Shown: piece after piece, positions 46,517-53,576 of the stretch
Position numbering within the stretch: the first letter of the stretch is position 1
How the letters are laid out: every line of letters starts with the position of its first letter
Assembly: GCA_938082345.1 (NCBI GenBank)
Contig: CALLKZ010000019.1
Location: 1,538 to 65,537 of the forward strand
DNA: 64,000 bases
Reading direction: 5' to 3'
DNA from: an uncultured Alphaproteobacteria bacterium
Lineage (GTDB): Bacteria > Pseudomonadota > Alphaproteobacteria > Puniceispirillales > Puniceispirillaceae
Notes under the pieces: generated by a model
The model's input: only the letters and a program-made list of their open reading frames with translations
What the model was told of the DNA's origin: nothing
The model's database searches: none
Position numbers and translations under genes: made by a program

Positions 46517-47662
46517 TTAGGGTTTTTCAGCCCAGATTCGCCGCGCCCGTTTCAGAAAACTATCGGTCTCTGGACTGGTGTCCCCCGCCTCAGCGAATGA
46601 TTTCAGCAGGTCTTTCTGCCGCTTATTCAAATTGGTTGGTGTTTCCACCTGAACTTCGACGATTTGATCGCCGCGCGCATTCCGCCGCAAAATAGGCATT
46701 CCCTTGCTTCGCATCCGAAACCGTCGACCTGACTGGGTTCCGGGCTCAATCGTCAACCTGGCCATTTTGCCCTCAACCGTCGGAACATCGATTGTTCCAC
46801 CAAGCGCAGCTGTAGTCATTGGCAGGGGAATGCGGGTCATGATATCGGCGCCATCACGGTGCAAAATAGGGTGCGAATCAACCGCTATGAAAATATACAG
46901 ATCACCGGCAGCAGCACCACGAAGTCCGGCCTCCCCTTTGCCGGAAAGGCGAATCCGTGTTCCTGTATCAACCCCAGCCGGAACAGAAACCGACAGAATT
47001 TTGCTTTGCTGGACGCGTCCGTCACCACCACATGATTTACACGGATCAGAGATAACCTGTCCCATTCCCTGACAAGCGTGACAGGTTCGTTCAACGGCGA
47101 AAAATCCCTGCTGCGCACGAATGCGCCCGCTGCCGCCACATGTCCCGCAACTCCGCGGCTGACTGCCTTCTGATGACCCGGATCCGCCGCACCCATCACA
47201 CCCGACAGGAACGGTAACAGTTATATCACGCTGCACGCCGGTAAACGCCTCTTCCAGCGACACATTCATATCATAGCGAAGATCGTTTCCGGCATGATCG
47301 GGCTGGCTGGCGCGCCCACGCCCCGAAAATTCGGAGAACATCTGGTCAAAAATGTCTGAAAAGCCGCCGCCGCCACCGCCAAATCCACTCGCACCGAAAC
47401 CACCGCCGCCCGCGCCAGCATTATCAAACGCTGCATGTCCCATCCGGTCATAGGCGGCACGCTTTTGTGGATCTTTTAGAACATCATATGCTGCGGTAGC
47501 TTCACGAAACCGCTCACCAGCAGCCTCATCATCTGGATTGCGGTCCGGATGATTTTGCATGGCAAGCTTGCGATAAGCTATTTTCAGTTCTTTTTCGTCG
47601 GCATCCTGCGACACGCCGAGGACTTCGTAGAAATCACGCTTGCTCATGCCCGTTGCCGCCAC
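46517..47662 (-). CDS. dnaJ: Chaperone DnaJ
   Basis: J domain with HPD, G/F-rich region, four CxxCxGxG motifs. Confidence 0.98.
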
Positions 47663-47737: not shown

Positions 47738-49642
47738 CTATTTTTTGTCAGCTTCGTCGTCGACCTCTTCAAAATCGGCATCGACAACGGTTTCATCGCC
47801 ACCTGTTGTTGCTCCCTCTTGGGATGGGTCCGCATCCTGCTCAGCTTGATAGGCAGCCTCGCCCATCTTCATCATCAACTGTGACAGCTCAGCAGATTTT
47901 GCTGTGACGCTTTCTATATCATCACTTTCAAGGGCTTCTTTTAAGGCAGCAATTCCAGCTTCGACTTCGGCCTTTGCTTCAGGTTCAGCTTTCTCACCAA
48001 GATCATCGATTGCTTTTTGCGCGCCATGCACCAAAGCTTCGCCCTGATTGCGCGTTTCAGCAGCATCGCGGCGTTTTTTATCTTCCTCGGCATTGGCTTC
48101 GGCCTCACTGACCATGCGGTCAATTTCGCTATCTTCCAGTCCACCAGACGCTTGAATCCGGATTTCCTGCTCTTTTCCGGTGGCTTTATCTTTCGCGCTG
48201 ACCTTAACGATGCCGTTGGCATCGATATCAAAAGTCACCTCAACCTGTGGAACACCCCGCGGGGCAGGGGCAATACCTTCCAGATTAAACTGGCCGAGAT
48301 GCTTATTATCAGAGGCCATTTCGCGCTCGCCCTGATAGACCGAAATGGTCACAGCGGACTGATTATCATCAGCAGTTGAGAAAACCTGACTTTTCTTTGT
48401 CGGGATTGTTGTATTGCGGTCAATCAGACGTGTGAAAACCCCGCCAAGGGTTTCAATGCCAAGCGACAATGGCGTCACGTCGAGAAGCAGAACATCCTTA
48501 ACCTCACCGGTCAGAACACCCGCCTGAATAGCCGCACCCGAGGCAACAACCTCGTCCGGGTTCACGCCGCGATGAGGTTCAGTTTCAAAAAATTCTTTCA
48601 CCGCTTCGATGATCTTTGGCATTCGGGTCATTCCGCCGACCAAAATTACTTCATCAATCTCGCTGGCCTTAATACCGGCATCTTTCAGCGCCGCTTTACA
48701 TGGCTTGATGGTACGCTGGATCAACTCCTCAACCAGCTGTTCCAGCTTGGAGCGGGTCATCTTTACATTCAGGTGCTTTGGTCCGGTTGCATCAGCGGTG
48801 ATAAAGGGAAGATTGACATCGGTCTGGATTGCCGAAGAAAGCTCAATCTTGGCTTTCTCAGCAGCTTCTTTTAGACGCTGGAGCGCGAGTTTGTCTTTAC
48901 GAAGATCGATACCCTCGCTCGATTTGAACTCATCAGCGAGGTACTGGATGATCTGATGATCAAAATCCTCTCCGCCAAGGAAGGTGTCTCCGTTTGTTGA
49001 TTTCACCTCAAAAACGCCGTCACCAACCTCAAGGATTGAAACGTCAAACGTGCCGCCGCCCAGGTCATAAACAACAATCAGACCCGATTCGCGCTGTTCC
49101 AGACCATAGGCCAAAGCCGCTGCGGTTGGCTCATTAATGATGCGCAGAACTTCAAGACCGGCAATTTTGCCAGCATCCTTGGTTGCTTGGCGCTGCGAAT
49201 CGTTAAAATAGGCTGGAACCGTGATCACAGCCTGCGTCACGCTTTCACCAAGATAGGCCTCGGCATCTTCTTTCAGTTTGCGAAGAACAAAGCTAGAAAT
49301 CTGGCTTGGTGAATAATCCTCGCCCTCAACCCGTACCCAAGCATCACCATTGCTGGAATCTGCTATTTCGTAGGGAACGAGTTCGGCGAATTTTTTCGTT
49401 GATTTGTCATCATGACGACGGCCAATCAGGCGTTTGATGGCGAATAGCGTGTTTTCCGGATTGGTTACGGCTTGGCGCTTTGCGGCCTGTCCGACAAGGC
49501 GTTCATCACCATCTGCAAAGGCAACCATTGACGGGGTGGTCCGGGCGCCTTCAGCGTTTTCAATCACACGCGCCTCTTTACCATCCATCACTGCTACGCA
49601 TGAATTTGTGGTTCCAAGGTCAATACCGATAACTTTGGCCAT
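47738..49642 (-). CDS. dnaK: Chaperone DnaK (Hsp70)
   Basis: [37 protein letters not shown]. Confidence 0.99.
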
Positions 49643-49775: not shown

Positions 49776-49803
49776 ATATGGGACGCCAATCTTTGGTTGC
49801 AAG
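49776..49803 (-). promoter_or_regulatory. RpoH (sigma32)-type promoter of dnaKJ
   Basis: CTTG-N17-CCCATAT on the minus strand, between the grpE stop and dnaK. Confidence 0.75.
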
Positions 49804-49824: not shown

Positions 49825-50553
49825 CTAATCTTTTTGCGGCGGCGGGTCTGTAGCAGGGGCCTTGGCCACACCAACCATCGCCGGTCGCAGCAACCTTTCA
49901 TGCAAAACATAGCCGTGCTGAACTACCTCAACCACCGTTCCGGGCTCTTGCTCGGCGGTTGGAACCTCAAACATGGCCTGATGGAAATTATAGTCGAACT
50001 TCTCGCCAAGCGGCTTAACTTGGCGAATGCCGTGACGCTCCATTGTTGACTGAATTTCAGACCAACTAAGTTCCAGTCCGGTAATGAGGCTCCCAATTGT
50101 TTCGGCCGACACCTGCTCATCAGCGGCAGGAGCGGCATCGATGGCGCGTGACAGATTATCTATCGCGCCAACCAGATCGCGTGAAAACCCTGTATGGCTA
50201 TATTTGCGCGCAGTTTCCATCTCGCGTTCGGTACGCCGACGCATATTTTCAACATCGGCTAAAGCTCGCAACAGCTGATCCTTTAGCGAGTCACGCTCAG
50301 CCAACAAGGCATCAAACGGATCAGCAGAACCCTCATCTTGAGACGAGGCGTCACCATCAGGGCCAAAATCTGATGCATCTTGAACGCCAGAATTATCGCC
50401 AGAATTATCGCCCGAATTATGGGGGCTCGGAGTCATGTCAGGGGTCGAACTTTCCTCTGCAGGGTCTGCTTGCTCCGGGTTCCCGGAAGTTGGGCCACCC
50501 TGCAAAAGAGTATCCTCCGGGGGTGTATCCCCAGTGTCATTCTGTTCTGTCAT
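49825..50553 (-). CDS. grpE: Nucleotide exchange factor GrpE (long acidic N-terminus)
   Basis: LLRALADVENMRRR, FDYNFHQAM, VVQHGYVLHERLLRPAMVGVAK; SGDN x3 12-bp repeat at 50386-50421. Confidence 0.97.
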   Translation of the reverse strand: MTEQNDTGDTPPEDTLLQGGPTSGNPEQADPAEESSTPDMTPSPHNSGDNSGDNSGVQDASDFGPDGDASSQDEGSADPFDALLAERDSLKDQLLRALADVENMRRRTEREMETARKYSHTGFSRDLVGAIDNLSRAIDAAPAADEQVSAETIGSLITGLELSWSEIQSTMERHGIRQVKPLGEKFDYNFHQAMFEVPTAEQEPGTVVEVVQHGYVLHERLLRPAMVGVAKAPATDPPPQKD

Positions 50554-50611
50554 TTCTCATCCTTCGCAAAAACACCGCACTGCACGGACAGCTCGCCCTT
50601 TGCGTAGAGTT

Positions 50612-50640
50612 ATTTAAGGAGGAATGCTGCATCATCCAAG
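50612..50640 (-). promoter_or_regulatory. RpoH (sigma32)-type promoter of grpE
   Basis: CTTG-N17-CCTTAAAT on the minus strand, about 60 bp upstream of the ATG. Confidence 0.6.
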
Positions 50641-50920
50641 TGGAAAACGCATAGTTTTTTCAAAAACATCGGCCGAATCGCCAATAATCGCCAATAAAAA
50701 CGCATTTTCGCGCTTAAAGAGCGAATTTCACGATCATCTTGACGCCAGAATTCGCCCCGCAATCGATTTGGATATGCTGATGTTATCTTGGCAAAATCTG
50801 GTTACAGCCAAATCTTGTCACTTAGTCTATTGCAACATTTATCATCGGGCTTAAACTATCGATTGAATCTAGGCATCCAAAATTTGATGCCCAAACTCTG
50901 GTTTGAAGGAGTAGCTGTTC

Positions 50921-51880
50921 ATGACGTCGGTGAGGCAGTCAATCACGGCTCAATCGATTACAGCTTTGTATGAAGAAGCTGAGCAACATGCAGGCGATGG
51001 CCCGCCGATGCTGGCACTTGTTCATTCAGCGCCAAATTCTGATTCGCTAACAAGTCCTGAGATAGGCCAAGACCCCGAGTTTGAACCAATTTCAATTACC
51101 CAGAGGCTCGAAACGCTGCATTATCTTGCCGAAAAAGAAGTTGCAACGGAAATCTTGCCCACCGAGCCGCCCACACCCAGCGCAATGGACACACCCTCCG
51201 ATCTTAATATGGGCGATATTCATGAATTGGTTCGGCAAGCGTGGGAAGATGATGCCGCTCTTGGAAATCAGGTAAAACCGGCGGTAGAAACGCTGCCAGA
51301 GTCCGACTCGGAGCCCAATATTGAGATCGCAATGGAGGAAATTGCAGCGGCGGTTGAAGACTCAACTCCCAATTCTGATTCCCAAACCTCGGATCAGAAG
51401 ATTTTGGATCAAAGTCTTTTGGATCAAAGTATTTCACGTCAAAATATCTCGAACGACAATTTAGCCGGCAGAAAAACCGAAAGTTCGAATGACCTGGCGA
51501 ATGACCCCGCACCCGCAAACGACACGGTAAATGACACCGGGAATGACACCGGGAATCACAAGGTGAACGACACCTTGATCGGGGATGTGAGCGAGGATGT
51601 AACCAGCAATTTTAGGGACTACATAAATGCCACAATCAGAAGCGAATTGCGCCTTGCTCTTGCTGACAGTCTGAGCAAGGACCTGAACGGCATTATTGGC
51701 GATATCATAAAGGATGTTGTGAGCGATACCGTAACGCAAATTCTTGACGGACCAGTTGCCAAAAAATCCACGGAGAAAAAGCCTGCAGCCAAGAAAGCTA
51801 CAGCAAAAAAACCTGCGTCGAAGAGAACCACATCAAAGAAATCCGCAGCAAAGAAAACTGTATCTAAAAAACGCAACTAG
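50921..51880 (+). CDS. Hypothetical acidic disordered protein with PopZ/DUF2497-like C-terminal helices and Lys/Ala-rich H1-like tail
   Basis: Strong SD (AAGGAG, 8 nt spacing); D/E/P/S/T-rich; IRSELRLALADSLSKDLNGIIGDIIKDVV; tail KKSTEKKPAAKKATAKKPASKRTTSKKSAAKKTVSKKRN. The CDS is well supported; the PopZ similarity is by eye. Confidence 0.75.
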   Translation: MTSVRQSITAQSITALYEEAEQHAGDGPPMLALVHSAPNSDSLTSPEIGQDPEFEPISITQRLETLHYLAEKEVATEILPTEPPTPSAMDTPSDLNMGDIHELVRQAWEDDAALGNQVKPAVETLPESDSEPNIEIAMEEIAAAVEDSTPNSDSQTSDQKILDQSLLDQSISRQNISNDNLAGRKTESSNDLANDPAPANDTVNDTGNDTGNHKVNDTLIGDVSEDVTSNFRDYINATIRSELRLALADSLSKDLNGIIGDIIKDVVSDTVTQILDGPVAKKSTEKKPAAKKATAKKPASKRTTSKKSAAKKTVSKKRN

Positions 51881-51993
51881 TCTCTTTACAAACCTATTCT
51901 TTATCGGGTGATAACGGTTTTTTAAATGATCTGTCTGCATAAGTCATAATGTAGCGTGATTTGCGCTGCAGCATTATTGACGGACATCACATC

Positions 51994-52494
51994 ATGCAGT
52001 TGCTGTGCCCCCATTGCCGGACGTCGGTTCAAATCCCGGATGTCTTTTCACGGTTTTTTGATATCCCGGTGGTGTGTTATCTTTGTGGGCGGGCGTTTGC
52101 CGTTCCCCCTCAGAACCCCGATTACGACAATATTACCAGCAATATTACCGGCAATATTACCGCCAACCCCCCTAATCACCTGTTTGAACGGTTGGTTTCA
52201 GCCCATCACCACAATCACATCATCACCTGCACAGCCTGCAAAAGCAAAATCGGGCTTGCCGGAACCAAATCTCACGCATCTCCACCCACCAATATTATAA
52301 CTGAAGATATCGAAGTTAGATGTCCGGTATGTGGTGAAGATTTCGTCCATAATTCACAGCAATCTTGGTCGGAGAGCCACGGCTTTTTGTGGACAGTGGT
52401 TGCGGGGCTGGCACTTGCAGCAATTGTCTTGATGCTGAATTACTTCGGCTTCATCTCGCTGCGCAATGCGGCAATACTGCTATCATTTAGCTAA
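51994..52494 (+). CDS. Hypothetical double zinc-ribbon (MJ0042/zinc_ribbon_4-5-like) protein with C-terminal TM anchor
   Basis: CPHC..CYLC and CTAC..CPVC pairs; hydrophobic FLWTVVAGLALAAIVLMLNYFGF; start taken at ATG 51994 (MQLLCPHC); 12-bp repeat x3 at 52128-52163 (NITS/NITG/NITA). Confidence 0.8.
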   Translation: MQLLCPHCRTSVQIPDVFSRFFDIPVVCYLCGRAFAVPPQNPDYDNITSNITGNITANPPNHLFERLVSAHHHNHIITCTACKSKIGLAGTKSHASPPTNIITEDIEVRCPVCGEDFVHNSQQSWSESHGFLWTVVAGLALAAIVLMLNYFGFISLRNAAILLSFS

Positions 52495-52497
52495 AAT

Positions 52498-53568
52498 TTA
52501 GCTGAGAACCGCAGCAATGGCCTTGCTGGTATAATCAACCATCGGGATAATTCGCGCATAATTCATATGCCGCGGCCCCAAAACACCAATCGCGCCGATA
52601 ACCGTCTGGTTGGCGTTGTGATAAGGCGCGATGACCAACGAGCAGCCGGTATTCACGAACAGATTATTCTCCGCACCAATGAAAATCTTCACGCCATCAC
52701 CATTACCCGTCGCCGATAATAGCCGCAAAGCATTTTCGCGCGCCTCAAGCTCATCAAAAAGTTGGCGAATAGTGCTAAGATCTTCGCCCGTATCAAGCGA
52801 GTCAAACATTGTAGCATCCAGCAAATTGGACTGGCCGCGCATCACCAGAACAGTTTCTTCCGAGGCATTTCCCTCAGACCACAACCCAACGCCCTGTTCC
52901 ACCAGACGCCGTGACATTTCATCAAGCTCGGCACGTTGCGCCGCTATTTCCGAGCGAATCAACCCGGTGGCAGCGGTCAGATCGCGCCCCGAAAGCCGGG
53001 CATTCATATAGTTGCTGGCGCGGATCAGCGCTGATTGCGGCACCCCTGCCGGAAGATCAATCAGGCGGTTTTCAACCTTGCCATCCATCCGCACCAAAAC
53101 CGCCAACGCACGTTTTTCACCCAACGGAACAAATTCAAAATGCTGAAGTTCGGCATTGCTGGCAGGCGACAGAACAAGACTGGCACATTGCGAAAGCCCG
53201 GACAGTGTACGACTGGTTTTTTCCAGCAATTCATCAACCGAAATGCCCCGCGTGGCGCATTCACCGTCAATCGACATCCGATCTTCTTTGGTCAGATCAT
53301 TGGTGAATTCCATTAATCCATCAACAAACATCCGCAAACCGGTCTCGGTCGGAACGCGCCCCGCCGAGATATGCGGCGAGAAGAGCAACCCCGCCTGTTC
53401 CAAATCACTCATGTTACTGCGAACTGATGCCGGCGAGAGATCATGTTTCAAATGTCTCGCCAGTGTTTTTGACCCGATGGGCTGGCCAGTTTCAAGATAC
53501 GCACCGACTAGCGCGTTGAAAATCTCAAGAGCGCGAGGTTTCAATCCGAGAAGGGTGGCGTCATTCAT
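52498..53568 (-). CDS. hrcA: Heat-inducible transcription repressor HrcA
   Basis: YLETGQPIGSKTL, SPASVRSNMSDLE..GLL..PHISAGRVPT..GLRMFVD, GVLGPRHMNY. Confidence 0.96.
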   Translation of the reverse strand: MNDATLLGLKPRALEIFNALVGAYLETGQPIGSKTLARHLKHDLSPASVRSNMSDLEQAGLLFSPHISAGRVPTETGLRMFVDGLMEFTNDLTKEDRMSIDGECATRGISVDELLEKTSRTLSGLSQCASLVLSPASNAELQHFEFVPLGEKRALAVLVRMDGKVENRLIDLPAGVPQSALIRASNYMNARLSGRDLTAATGLIRSEIAAQRAELDEMSRRLVEQGVGLWSEGNASEETVLVMRGQSNLLDATMFDSLDTGEDLSTIRQLFDELEARENALRLLSATGNGDGVKIFIGAENNLFVNTGCSLVIAPYHNANQTVIGAIGVLGPRHMNYARIIPMVDYTSKAIAAVLS

Positions 53569-53576
53569 CAAACCAG

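What the first reader, a model, noticed from the sequence alone, without database searches (positions are those of the whole stretch)
50554..52497. Candidate undescribed polar-scaffold module (PopZ-like + ZitP-like pair) inserted between hrcA and grpE
Seen: two co-oriented + strand hypothetical genes interrupt the minus-strand hrcA-grpE-dnaK-dnaJ run, and grpE has its own RpoH-type promoter. Known: hrcA and grpE are commonly neighbours in alphaproteobacteria, and in Caulobacter the N-terminal zinc finger of the membrane protein ZitP binds the polar scaffold PopZ. Inference: one gene looks like a divergent PopZ and the other like a ZitP-type zinc finger with a membrane anchor. Their adjacency suggests a cognate scaffold-anchor pair, possibly a second or lineage-specific polar hub. 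The basic tail could tether DNA, and the location beside the chaperone genes could link it to polar protein quality control.
Basis: partly seen in the sequence, partly recalled or inferred. Interest (0 to 1): 0.78.

Follow-up and report, generated by a model that had tools for sequence, protein, structure and literature searches.

The report
Linked PopZ-like and ZitP-like gene pair
Marine SAR116 bacteria carry, wedged between two heat-shock genes, a conserved and expressed pair of genes that are distant extra copies of the cell-pole scaffold PopZ and its zinc-finger membrane partner ZitP; this suggests a second, untested scaffold-and-anchor system.

Summary
Two + strand genes lie between hrcA and grpE: ORF1 (50921-51880, 319 aa) and ORF2 (51994-52494, 166 aa). 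grpE has a conserved RpoH-like promoter.

ORF1 misses Pfam DUF2497. Profile-profile comparison nevertheless aligns its C-terminal helices with the PopZ oligomerisation domain (probability 26-79%, E 7e-4 to 2e-5; shuffled and reversed controls score far lower). An ORF1-core HMM ranks 15 PopZ proteins above all 21,142 ORFs of the genome. ORF1 is acidic and largely disordered, with a +15 histone-H1-like tail.

ORF2 has two MJ0042-type zinc ribbons and one C-terminal membrane helix. Ribbon 1 has ZitP's exact cysteine spacing, with F/Y where ZitP has W35. Its best PDB fold match is the ZitP zinc finger. Its best paralogue in the genome is the true ZitP-like gene.

A positional PopZ candidate (tolC-valS site) and a ZitP orthologue (with DUF3426) lie elsewhere, so this pair is extra. 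The pair is adjacent in at least ten Puniceispirillaceae genera and both genes are absent in two. ORF2 has decayed in some species of one genus. Both genes appear in metatranscriptomes.

Interaction, polar localisation and DNA binding are untested. The proposed chaperone link is unsupported. I rate it a new variant of a known kind.

The parts
49776..49803 (-). RpoH-type promoter upstream of dnaK (context)
   Evidence: CTTGCAACCAAAGATTGGCGTCCCATAT is the only exact window match to CTTG-N16-19-CYYATNT. About 2 matches are expected by chance, so the placement before dnaK is what matters.
49825..50553 (-). grpE
   Evidence: Pfam GrpE, E 1.2e-46.
50612..50640 (-). RpoH-like promoter of grpE (CTTG-N17-CCTTAAAT)
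   Evidence: Read from the sequence. The CCAAG and GCGTTATTTA(A/G)G blocks (+ strand view) are conserved in L095 and L097-L100.
50921..51880 (+). ORF1: PopZ-like paralogue, 319 aa. Residues 1-275 are acidic; the tail is basic.
50924..50998 (+). ORF1 N-terminal conserved helix (VRQSITALYEEA...; family consensus SIEALYxEAE)
   Evidence: Invariant columns; AF2 helix 2-26. Not significantly similar to the PopZ N-terminal helix.
51155..51253 (+). ORF1 motif LPxEPPxP...DLxxGDIxxLVRQAWEDE (residues 79-111)
   Evidence: The most conserved block within the genus; AF2 helix 97-117, pLDDT about 87.
51317..51361 (+). ORF1 helix IEIAMEEIAAAV (residues 133-147), aligned to the first helix of PopZ DUF2497
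   Evidence: Invariant M138, E140, I141, A142-A144, V145; hhalign alignment.
51560..51745 (+). ORF1 long C-terminal helix (residues 214-275), aligned to the PopZ core LRPxLKEWLDxNLPxxVE
   Evidence: AF2 pLDDT 88-93. hhalign probability 26-79%; controls; reverse HMM ranking.
51746..51877 (+). ORF1 histone-H1-like A/K-rich tail (residues 276-319, net +15, pI 11.1)
   Evidence: Sub-threshold HC2 match, 24.4 bits against a cut-off of 40. Charge. Built from 15/30-nt tandem repeats. Disordered in AF2.
51994..52494 (+). ORF2: tail-anchored protein with two zinc ribbons, 166 aa
51994..52104 (+). ORF2 zinc ribbon 1 (C5, C8, C28, C31, F35), MJ0042/ZitP type
   Evidence: TIGR02098 21.7 bits against a cut-off of 20.9. 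Same Cys positions as ZitP (PMC5182065). Foldseek top hit 2nb9, the ZitP zinc finger. Best paralogue in the genome is the ZitP-like ORF.
52216..52347 (+). ORF2 zinc ribbon 2 (C79, C82, C110, C113)
   Evidence: Invariant cysteines. Pfam Zn_ribbon_4 and DZR matches. The ribbon-2 HMM hits the two other MJ0042 proteins of the genome.
52378..52449 (+). ORF2 transmembrane helix (about residues 129-152)
   Evidence: AF2 helix 129-165. Kyte-Doolittle maximum 2.40 centred on residue 139.
52498..53571 (-). hrcA
   Evidence: Pfam HrcA, E 1.4e-55.

Best explanation
The hrcA-grpE gap holds a two-gene operon that is specific to the family Puniceispirillaceae (SAR116). It is a diverged second copy of the alphaproteobacterial PopZ/ZitP polarity pair.

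ORF1. It keeps a PopZ-like C-terminal helical domain, whose inferred role is self-assembly into oligomers or a condensate. This follows a long acidic, mostly disordered region that carries several short conserved helices, which are probably partner-binding sites. In most genera it ends in a strongly basic histone-H1-like tail. That tail could bind DNA or other polyanions, or could pair with the acidic region to drive condensation.

ORF2. It is a tail-anchored inner-membrane protein with two ZitP-type zinc ribbons facing the cytoplasm.

Proposed mechanism. By analogy with ZitP's zinc ribbon binding PopZ, ORF2 binds ORF1 and fixes or positions the ORF1 assembly at the membrane.

Shown here: the homologies, the domain architecture, the conserved adjacency, the co-occurrence and the transcription.
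Inferred, not shown: self-assembly, ORF1-ORF2 binding, localisation, and any role for the tail.
For: ORF1 resembles PopZ.
- hhalign of the ORF1 family against a 27-sequence PopZ alignment gives probability 61-79% and E 8e-5 to 1.7e-5. The match covers both the MADIAAAV helix and the ELPxMVR helix against DUF2497.
- The tool's own hhalign gives 47%, E 2e-4. The genus-only alignment gives 26%, E 7e-4.
- Controls against a real score of 38.6-39.9: reversed PopZ 13-14, column shuffles at most 16, 7-column block shuffles at most 24.
- An ORF1-core HMM without the tail was searched against 21,142 ORFs of the genome plus PopZ sequences. After the self hit, ranks 2-16 were all PopZ or tolC-valS PopZ-like proteins; the first decoy came at rank 17.
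- AF2 gives helices separated by disorder, with the C-terminal helix at pLDDT 88-93. Residues 1-275 have pI 4.05.

ORF2 resembles ZitP.
- TIGR02098 is just above its cut-off.
- 10 of 13 orthologues hit PF13717 and 4 of 13 hit PF13719, which is ZitP's family according to PMC5182065.
- The cysteines sit at 5, 8, 28 and 31, and residue 35 is aromatic.
- The Foldseek top PDB hit is the ZitP zinc finger 2nb9: probability 0.95, TM 0.57, rmsd 2.4 A.
- The best non-self hit in the genome is the ZnR+TM+DUF3426 protein, E 1e-4.

The pair is extra.
- The ZitP orthologue lies on contig C120 and has W35.
- A tolC-[ORF]-valS positional PopZ candidate lies on contig C60.
- In G024 the tolC-valS ORF is clearly PopZ-like, and the same genome also has the pair.

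The two genes are linked.
- They are adjacent in genera g1, g2, g3, g4, g91, g92, g94, g95, g96 and g98.
- Both are absent in g97 and g99 and in the sister families f2 and f3, where hrcA abuts grpE.
- Start and stop overlap in g3, g4 and g98.

The genes are expressed. Metatranscriptome contigs cover both genes and the junction 51812-51999, while hrcA shows no coverage.
Against: - No member reaches the Pfam DUF2497 threshold; the best single hit among 34 members has E 0.21.
- A PopZ HMM does not rank the window's own ORF1 among the top ORFs of the genome.
- The similarity covers about 40-70 columns of amphipathic helix, a kind of sequence prone to convergence.
- The PopZ N-terminal helix is not recovered.
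- The proline of the NLP signature is not invariant; the window has DLN.
- ZitP determinants W35 and R24/R27 are not conserved. The window has F35, I24 and V27.
- The ORF2 model is of low confidence (mean pLDDT 58), and the fold and sequence matches to 2nb9 are not statistically significant (E 0.15 and 0.1).
- Several g2 species keep ORF1 but have lost or truncated ORF2, so ORF1 does not strictly need ORF2.
- The basic tail is absent in g96 and g98.
- No interaction or localisation data exist.
Confidence: 0.55

Rival explanations
1. ORF1 is a nucleoid-associated or condensate-forming polyampholyte: an acidic disordered region plus a histone-H1-like tail. Its helices resemble PopZ only by convergence. 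ORF2 is an unrelated small membrane zinc-ribbon protein that is merely co-transcribed. On this reading there is no scaffold-anchor relationship and no role in polarity.
For: - The only above-noise Pfam or NCBIfam hits of ORF1 are to H1-like tails (HC2; 12 of 34 members).
- The protein is split into a -37 block and a +15 block.
- There is no DUF2497 hit.
- Some species keep ORF1 without ORF2.
Against: - The tail is missing in g96 and g98, whereas the helices are conserved.
- PopZ proteins are very strongly enriched at the top of the tail-less ORF1-core HMM search.
- The hhalign scores are far above the shuffled and reversed controls.
- The partner gene carries the one zinc-ribbon type known to bind PopZ.
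- The two genes are present together or absent together across about 12 genera.
Confidence: 0.2
2. The pair is a stress-linked module co-regulated with grpE through the shared 367-bp divergent intergenic region, for example a membrane-tethered holdase or a regulator of the HrcA/DnaK system. On this reading its position beside the chaperone genes is functional.
For: - The position between hrcA and grpE is conserved across the family.
- It shares an intergenic region with a conserved RpoH-like grpE promoter.
- A weaker CTTG-N17-CCAAATCT lies on the + strand about 105 nt before ORF1. I read this; it is not conserved in the alignment.
Against: - The pair is kept where hrcA has been lost (g98).
- It lies on the opposite strand.
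- There is no zf-DNL/Hep1, DnaJ-type or anti-sigma zinc-finger signature.
- One ancestral insertion followed by vertical inheritance explains the position without any functional link.
- The sister families f2 and f3 and the genera g97 and g99 manage with hrcA directly next to grpE.
Confidence: 0.12
3. ORF1 is the true PopZ orthologue, relocated, and the tolC-valS ORF is something else.
For: In genus g1 the ORF1 family scores better against PopZ (probability 61-79%) than the tolC-valS family does (8.8%, E 0.004).
Against: - In G024 and G037 the tolC-valS ORF matches PopZ directly (E about 1e-6 with my HMM; Pfam E 9e-4), with the correct V-to-W spacing.
- G024 also has the ORF1/ORF2 pair, so the two coexist.
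- By eye, the g1 tolC-valS ORFs keep a PopZ-like N-terminus (AMEAIRALVE), a VLxL motif and a C-terminal LRxxVRxxIDxWL.
Confidence: 0.08

Closest known systems
PopZ (polar organizing protein Z; Pfam DUF2497, PF10691) of Alphaproteobacteria
   Same: - An acidic, proline-rich, largely disordered protein.
- Its C-terminal helices align with the PopZ oligomerisation domain (helix afaxL plus LRPxLKEWLDxNLPxxVE against MADIAAAV plus VRxVLxEELPxMVRxAV).
- Similar overall size.
   Different: - Below the Pfam threshold.
- The N-terminal client-binding helix MEEILASIRRII is not detectably conserved.
- It has extra conserved helices: SIEALYxEAE, RFxELxxLAE and DIxxLVRQAWEDE.
- Most genera have a C-terminal basic H1-like tail.
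- It is not at the tolC-valS locus, which another PopZ-like gene occupies.
- It is genetically linked to a zinc-ribbon partner, whereas popZ and zitP are unlinked in this genome (contigs C60 and C120).
ZitP (Caulobacter CC2215; ZnR + TM + DUF3426), PDB 2nb9
   Same: - An N-terminal cytoplasmic MJ0042-type zinc ribbon with Cys at 5, 8, 28 and 31 and an aromatic residue at 35.
- A single transmembrane helix.
- ZitP is its closest paralogue in the genome and the top PDB fold match.
   Different: - A second zinc ribbon is present.
- There is no periplasmic DUF3426; only 15-45 residues follow the membrane helix.
- W35 is replaced by F or Y.
- The R24/R27 basic patch is not conserved.
- The gene lies directly downstream of its presumed partner.
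GltJ/AgmX ZnR domain of Myxococcus (PDB 7zok)
   Same: The same zinc-ribbon class, on a membrane protein, used as a cytoplasmic protein-binding switch. It is a weak sequence hit (E 0.047).
   Different: It belongs to a different lineage and has a different partner. According to the abstract of PMC11135422 it is part of the MglA-guided gliding machinery. It has Ile at the W35 position and does not bind PopZ (PMC5182065).
Histone-H1-like bacterial tails (Hc2, AlgP, PhaF type A/K/P repeats)
   Same: A lysine- and alanine-rich repetitive C-terminal tail with a sub-threshold HC2 match.
   Different: The resemblance is in composition only. The tail is attached to an acidic PopZ-like body and is dispensable in some genera.

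Membership tests
PopZ / DUF2497 (PF10691) | Match to the Pfam DUF2497 model at the gathering threshold (27 bits) | tested here: not met
   - No hit for the window protein.
- No hit anywhere in the genome.
- 0 of 24 and 1 of 34 family members hit, the best at E 0.21.
PopZ / DUF2497 (PF10691) | C-terminal helical oligomerisation domain homologous to PopZ helices H2-H4 | tested here: met
   - hhalign probability 26-79%, E 7e-4 to 1.7e-5.
- Controls score far lower.
- The ORF1-core HMM ranks 15 PopZ-type proteins above all 21,142 decoy ORFs.
- This is remote homology; convergence is not fully excluded.
PopZ / DUF2497 (PF10691) | N-terminal client-binding helix (MEEILASIRRIISED) | tested here: not met
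   hhalign of the two N-terminal regions scores 14.3 (probability 0.9%). This was not controlled directly; a parallel N-terminal comparison had a shuffle background of mean 15, maximum 20.
PopZ / DUF2497 (PF10691) | Acidic, Pro-rich, disordered linker | tested here: met
   Residues 1-275 have pI 4.05 and net charge -37. AF2 shows low-pLDDT linkers between the helices.
PopZ / DUF2497 (PF10691) | Canonical tolC-popZ-valS neighbourhood (orthology) | tested here: not met
   ORF1 lies between grpE and hrcA. A different 240-aa PopZ-like ORF occupies the tolC-valS gap on contig C60.
PopZ / DUF2497 (PF10691) | Self-assembly into a polar matrix or condensate | not testable with these tools
   Needs microscopy or biophysics.
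ZitP | N-terminal MJ0042 / Zn_ribbon_5-type zinc ribbon with C5, C8, C28, C31 | tested here: met
   - TIGR02098 21.7 bits against a cut-off of 20.9.
- PF13717 in 10 of 13 and PF13719 in 4 of 13 orthologues.
- C8, C28 and C31 are invariant; C5 is conserved in 12 of 13.
- Top PDB fold hit is 2nb9.
ZitP | Invariant W35 and the R24/R27 basic patch required for PopZ binding (PMC5182065) | tested here: not met
   Position 35 is F in g1 and Y in g3 and g4. The window has I24 and V27; some orthologues have R27.
ZitP | Single transmembrane helix after a cytoplasmic linker | tested here: met
   AF2 helix 129-165. Kyte-Doolittle peak 2.40 at residue 139.
ZitP | C-terminal periplasmic DUF3426 | tested here: not met
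   No DUF3426 hit, and the protein ends about 15 residues after the membrane helix. The genome's DUF3426 protein lies on contig C120.
ZitP | Direct binding of the zinc ribbon to the PopZ(-like) partner | not testable with these tools
   A multimer prediction could not be run here. Needs AF-Multimer, ITC or co-localisation.
Histone H1-like Hc2 (PF07382) | Match at the gathering threshold (40 bits) | tested here: not met
   24.4 bits over residues 280-317 only. The resemblance is compositional.

The most novel reading that the evidence does not exclude
Puniceispirillaceae run two parallel PopZ/ZitP systems. The second is a genetically fused 'cognate pair'. In it, a PopZ-like condensate scaffold has gained a DNA-binding (or self-coacervating) basic tail and is held at the membrane by a minimal, tail-anchored double-zinc-ribbon ZitP relative. 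This would be a membrane-nucleoid tether or second hub that is insulated from the canonical PopZ-ZitP pair, in an abundant free-living marine clade with no known polar development.
Probability: 0.3. Interest if true: 0.75.

Novelty: new variant of a known kind. Interest (0 to 1): 0.6.

Why it matters
In this survey the Pfam PopZ model matched once per genome in 64 of 81 alphaproteobacterial genera, so PopZ behaves as a single-copy hub. In this genome the ZitP orthologue and the PopZ candidate lie on different contigs.

A diverged, co-inherited PopZ-like/ZitP-like operon would be a natural experiment in three respects:
- how scaffold-anchor specificity evolves (W35 to F/Y, loss of the basic patch, new helices on the scaffold);
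- how condensate scaffolds acquire new modules (a block of charge -37 next to a tail of +15);
- what such systems do in streamlined marine plankton such as SAR116.

The pair is small and, by analogy with the published PopZ/ZitP work, should be testable by expression in E. coli. It also gives provisional names to two 'hypothetical' gene families found in nearly all Puniceispirillaceae genera examined.

Tried and rejected
- Pfam and NCBIfam scans of ORF1 gave only compositional tail hits.
- The Pfam DUF2497 search of the whole genome was empty.
- A PopZ HMM searched against all ORFs of the genome did not pick out ORF1 or the tolC-valS ORF. Only the reverse search and the profile-profile comparisons work.
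- The word-indexed homology search for ORF2 found only the species itself. Orthologues had to be found by position and by profile.
- N-terminal homology to PopZ, and between ORF1 and the tolC-valS ORF (IxRLAEEADKVA against ITALYEEAE), is not above the shuffled background.
- The Foldseek and PDB sequence matches for ORF2 are top-ranked but not significant.
- A Hep1/Tim15-type Hsp70 escort zinc finger was considered because of the neighbouring genes. It was rejected: there is no zf-DNL hit, and 2e2z appears only at rank 26 with E 2.5.
- No CtrA box (TTAA-N7-TTAA) lies in the ORF1 upstream region. One 1-mismatch site lies at 51911-51925 between the two ORFs, and the window-wide count is no higher than chance.
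- The sigma-70 and terminator scans were uninformative.
- No Rfam match.
- The literature search found no PopZ paralogue and nothing linking SAR116 to PopZ.
- Spurious ORFs were rejected on conservation and expression.
Full report
**Observation**

The window carries dnaJ (46517-47662), dnaK (47738-49642), grpE (49825-50553) and hrcA (52498-53571), all on the minus strand. Pfam confirms GrpE at E 1e-46 and HrcA at E 1e-55.

Two + strand ORFs lie between grpE and hrcA. ORF1 is 50921-51880 (319 aa). ORF2 is listed as 51961-52494, but its conserved start is the ATG at 51994, giving 166 aa that begin MQLLCPHC.

grpE is preceded by CTTG-N17-CCTTAAAT at 50640-50612 on the minus strand. Both boxes are conserved in five relatives. 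dnaK has a textbook CTTG-N17-CCCATAT at 49803-49776.

**Organism and distribution**

Related loci come from SAR116 / Candidatus Puniceispirillaceae MAGs. One relative has a contig of 2,753,527 bp. From memory, that is the genome size of Puniceispirillum marinum IMCC1322.

Presence of the pair:
- All 10 complete loci of the same genus have hrcA | ORF2 | ORF1 | grpE.
- Across 96 genomes of the family, the genus-level ORF1 profile hits 7 of 13 genera and the ORF2 profile hits 12 of 13. The ORF2 count includes weak matches to ribbon 1 alone that probably belong to ZitP orthologues. Wherever both genes are hit, they are adjacent.
- Positional inspection adds diverged ORF1 homologues in g3, g4, g92, g94 and g98.

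Absence of the pair:
- Both genes are missing in g97 and g99. There hrcA abuts grpE, or rph abuts grpE.
- Both are missing in the sister families f2 and f3, where hrcA directly abuts grpE.

Exceptions and context:
- In genus g2 several species retain ORF1 while ORF2 is deleted (G022) or truncated to about 55 aa (G156, G165, G168).
- In g98 hrcA itself has been lost but the pair remains.
- The ORF1 family is small: 76 clusters at 50% identity among 1.84 billion representative proteins.

**ORF1**

Database scans. Pfam and NCBIfam give only sub-threshold histone-H1-like hits to residues 280-317. DUF2497 is not hit in the protein, in the genome, or in 57 of the 58 family-member scans run (24 + 34, with some members in both sets); the single hit has E 0.21.

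Conserved blocks:
- an N-terminal helix, SIEALYxEAE;
- RFxELxxLAE;
- LPxEPPxP...DIxxLVRQAWEDE (genus level only);
- MAxIAAAV;
- a long C-terminal helix with consensus VRxVLxEELPxMVRxAV, followed by an A/K-rich tail.

Structure and charge. AF2 with 24 sequences gives helices 2-26, 59-76, 97-117, 133-147, 157-178 and 214-275. The last has pLDDT 88-93. The linkers and the tail are disordered. Residues 1-275 have pI 4.05 and net charge -37. Residues 276-319 have pI 11.06 and net charge +15.

Similarity to PopZ. I built a 27-sequence PopZ alignment from a class-wide DUF2497 survey in which 64 of 81 genera had one copy each.
- hhalign of the ORF1 family against this alignment gives probability 61-79% and E 8e-5 to 1.7e-5. 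It aligns MAxIAAAV and the C-terminal helix onto the DUF2497 helices.
- The tool's own hhalign gives 47%, E 2e-4. The genus-only alignment gives 26%, E 7e-4.
- Controls against a real score of 38.6-39.9: reversed PopZ scores 13-14, column shuffles at most 16, and 7-column block shuffles at most 24.
- An HMM of the ORF1 core without the tail was searched against 21,142 stop-to-stop ORFs of the genome plus PopZ sequences. After the self hit, ranks 2-16 were all PopZ or tolC-valS PopZ-like proteins. The first decoy appeared at rank 17.

Limits of that similarity.
- The reverse search fails. A PopZ HMM does not rank the window's ORF1 highly.
- The N-terminal regions are not significantly similar.

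I conclude that ORF1 is probably a remote homologue of PopZ in its assembly domain, and that it is not a DUF2497 member by the curated criterion.

The tail. It is missing in g96 and g98, so it is an accessory part and not the core of the family.

**The genome also has a positional PopZ and a true ZitP**

PopZ candidate. Between a tolC-like gene and valS on contig C60 lies a 240-aa ORF.
- By my reading of the sequences, its genus-level family has a PopZ-like N-terminus (AMEAIRALVEAN), an ILDLDDVVW motif and a C-terminal LRxMVRAQIDAWLA.
- hhalign of that family against PopZ is weak but falls in the correct register (8.8%, E 0.004).
- In G024 (same family) and G037 (sister family) the tolC-valS ORF matches PopZ more clearly: Pfam E 9e-4 and 3e-3, and my HMM about 1e-6.
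- G024 also has the ORF1/ORF2 pair, so the two kinds of gene coexist as paralogues.
- G037's PopZ carries a basic tail. This hints that ORF1 may descend from a PopZ that already had a tail.

ZitP orthologue. It lies on contig C120 and has a zinc ribbon with W35, K24 and R27, then a membrane helix, then DUF3426 at 28.9 bits.

**ORF2**

Conserved features. Thirteen orthologues from three genera share C5 (Ser in one of the 13), C8, C28, C31, C79, C82, C110 and C113, plus a hydrophobic helix and G152.

Family matches.
- TIGR02098 (MJ0042) scores 21.7 bits against a cut-off of 20.9.
- 10 of 13 orthologues hit Zn_ribbon_4, and 4 of 13 hit Zn_ribbon_5. Zn_ribbon_5 is the family that Bergé et al. (PMC5182065) assign to ZitP.

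Comparison with ZitP. That paper defines C5, C8, C28, C31, W35 and R24/R27 as the determinants of PopZ binding, and notes that AgmX, with Ile at position 35, fails to bind.
- ORF2 ribbon 1 has the identical cysteine positions and F or Y at 35.
- It lacks the basic patch in the window's protein.

Structure.
- The AF2 model is weak (mean pLDDT 58). It shows two four-stranded ribbons and a helix at 129-165.
- Its best PDB fold match among 350,542 chains is 2nb9, 'Solution structure of ZitP zinc finger' (probability 0.95, TM 0.57, rmsd 2.4 A, E 0.15).
- The profile search of PDB sequences lists GltJ/AgmX ZnR (E 0.047) and 2nb9 (E 0.1) as the matches to ribbon 1.

Paralogues. Within the genome, the best non-self hit of the ribbon-1 HMM is the ZitP-like ORF (E 1e-4). 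Ribbon 2 hits the same two MJ0042 proteins.

Difference from ZitP. There is no DUF3426, and only 15-45 residues follow the membrane helix. ORF2 is therefore a minimal, tail-anchored relative of ZitP with two ribbons. It is not a ZitP orthologue.

**Expression**

Seawater and marsh metatranscriptome contigs at 99-100% identity cover:
- ORF1 (50938-51191 and 51390-51554);
- the ORF1-ORF2 junction (51812-51999);
- ORF2 (51916-52105 and 52244-52453).

hrcA shows no coverage in the same runs. This argues for real transcripts and is compatible with co-transcription. Contig depth is a crude measure, however.

**Mechanism**

Shown here:
- remote homology to the assembly domain of PopZ and to the PopZ-binding zinc-ribbon class of ZitP;
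- a cytoplasm-facing, membrane-anchored topology for ORF2;
- a conserved operon-like arrangement, with start/stop overlaps in g3, g4 and g98;
- joint presence and joint absence across genera;
- transcription.

Inferred, not shown:
- ORF1 oligomerises through residues about 130-275.
- ORF2's ribbons bind ORF1 and tether it to the inner membrane.
- The basic tail binds DNA or polyanions, or the acidic region.

I put the overall model at about 0.55. The main uncertainty is whether the helix similarity reflects homology and a conserved interaction. The loss of ORF2 in some g2 species shows the partnership is not obligatory.

The suggested link to chaperones or protein quality control is unsupported. 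The genes are on the opposite strand, the pair outlives hrcA in g98, and a single ancestral insertion explains the location.

**Novelty**

Searches of the literature found no PopZ paralogue, no study of a tail-bearing PopZ, and nothing on PopZ in SAR116. I classify the pair as a new variant of a known kind: a diverged, genetically linked duplicate of the PopZ-ZitP module.

Noticed in passing
G000 contig C60 (locus L027 2459-3181), outside the window: A 240-aa ORF lies between a tolC-like gene and valS, the position where PopZ-like ORFs lie in G024 and G037. It is so diverged that Pfam DUF2497 misses it. It has a PopZ-like N-terminus (AIEAIRQLVEDN) and ends at ...LRSIVRDHIDAWLASQNSK, so it appears to lack the last PopZ helix.
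   Followed up: partly
G000 contig C120 (locus L001 1315-1914), outside the window: The canonical ZitP orthologue, 199 aa: a zinc ribbon with W35, K24 and R27, then a membrane helix, then DUF3426. It lies next to lysA.
   Followed up: partly
L021 1183-1890 (genome G037, sister family f2): The tolC-valS PopZ orthologue of this SAR116 relative carries a long S/K/R-rich basic tail after the DUF2497 core. It may represent the ancestral state from which tail-bearing ORF1 arose.
   Followed up: partly
window 50936-50965: ORF1 of this species has a 5-aa tandem duplication, QSITA-QSITA, that is absent in all other aligned homologues. The two copies (cag tca atc acg gct / caa tcg att aca gct) differ at the third position of four of the five codons; the last codon, gct, is identical.
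   Followed up: no
window 52128-52166 and 51391-51434, 51530-51560: Species-specific in-frame tandem repeats: NIT(S/G/A) x3 in the ORF2 linker, and (I/L)LDQS and NDTG repeats in the disordered part of ORF1. They show that the linkers change rapidly by repeat expansion.
   Followed up: no
L103, L105, L107, L108, L111, L112 (genera g98 and g97): hrcA has been lost from the rph-hrcA-grpE locus in genus g98 and in two of the three g97 genomes examined. I did not check whether the CIRCE/HrcA regulon is gone in these lineages.
   Followed up: no
window about 50755-50785; L095, L097-L100 upstream of ORF1: A conserved element, ATGTTGTCG-N7-9-GAATATGC(A/C)AGA, lies about 100-150 nt upstream of ORF1 in relatives. 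The window has CAATCGAT..GGATATGCTGA. It could be the ORF1 promoter or an operator.
   Followed up: no
window 49776-49803 (-): A textbook alphaproteobacterial RpoH promoter (CTTG-N17-CCCATAT) lies between grpE and dnaK, so dnaK has its own heat-shock promoter.
   Followed up: partly
G000 contig C12 16435-17349 (locus L002): A third MJ0042-type zinc-ribbon protein (305 aa) with a weak DUF3426 match. It is hit by both ORF2 ribbon HMMs.
   Followed up: no
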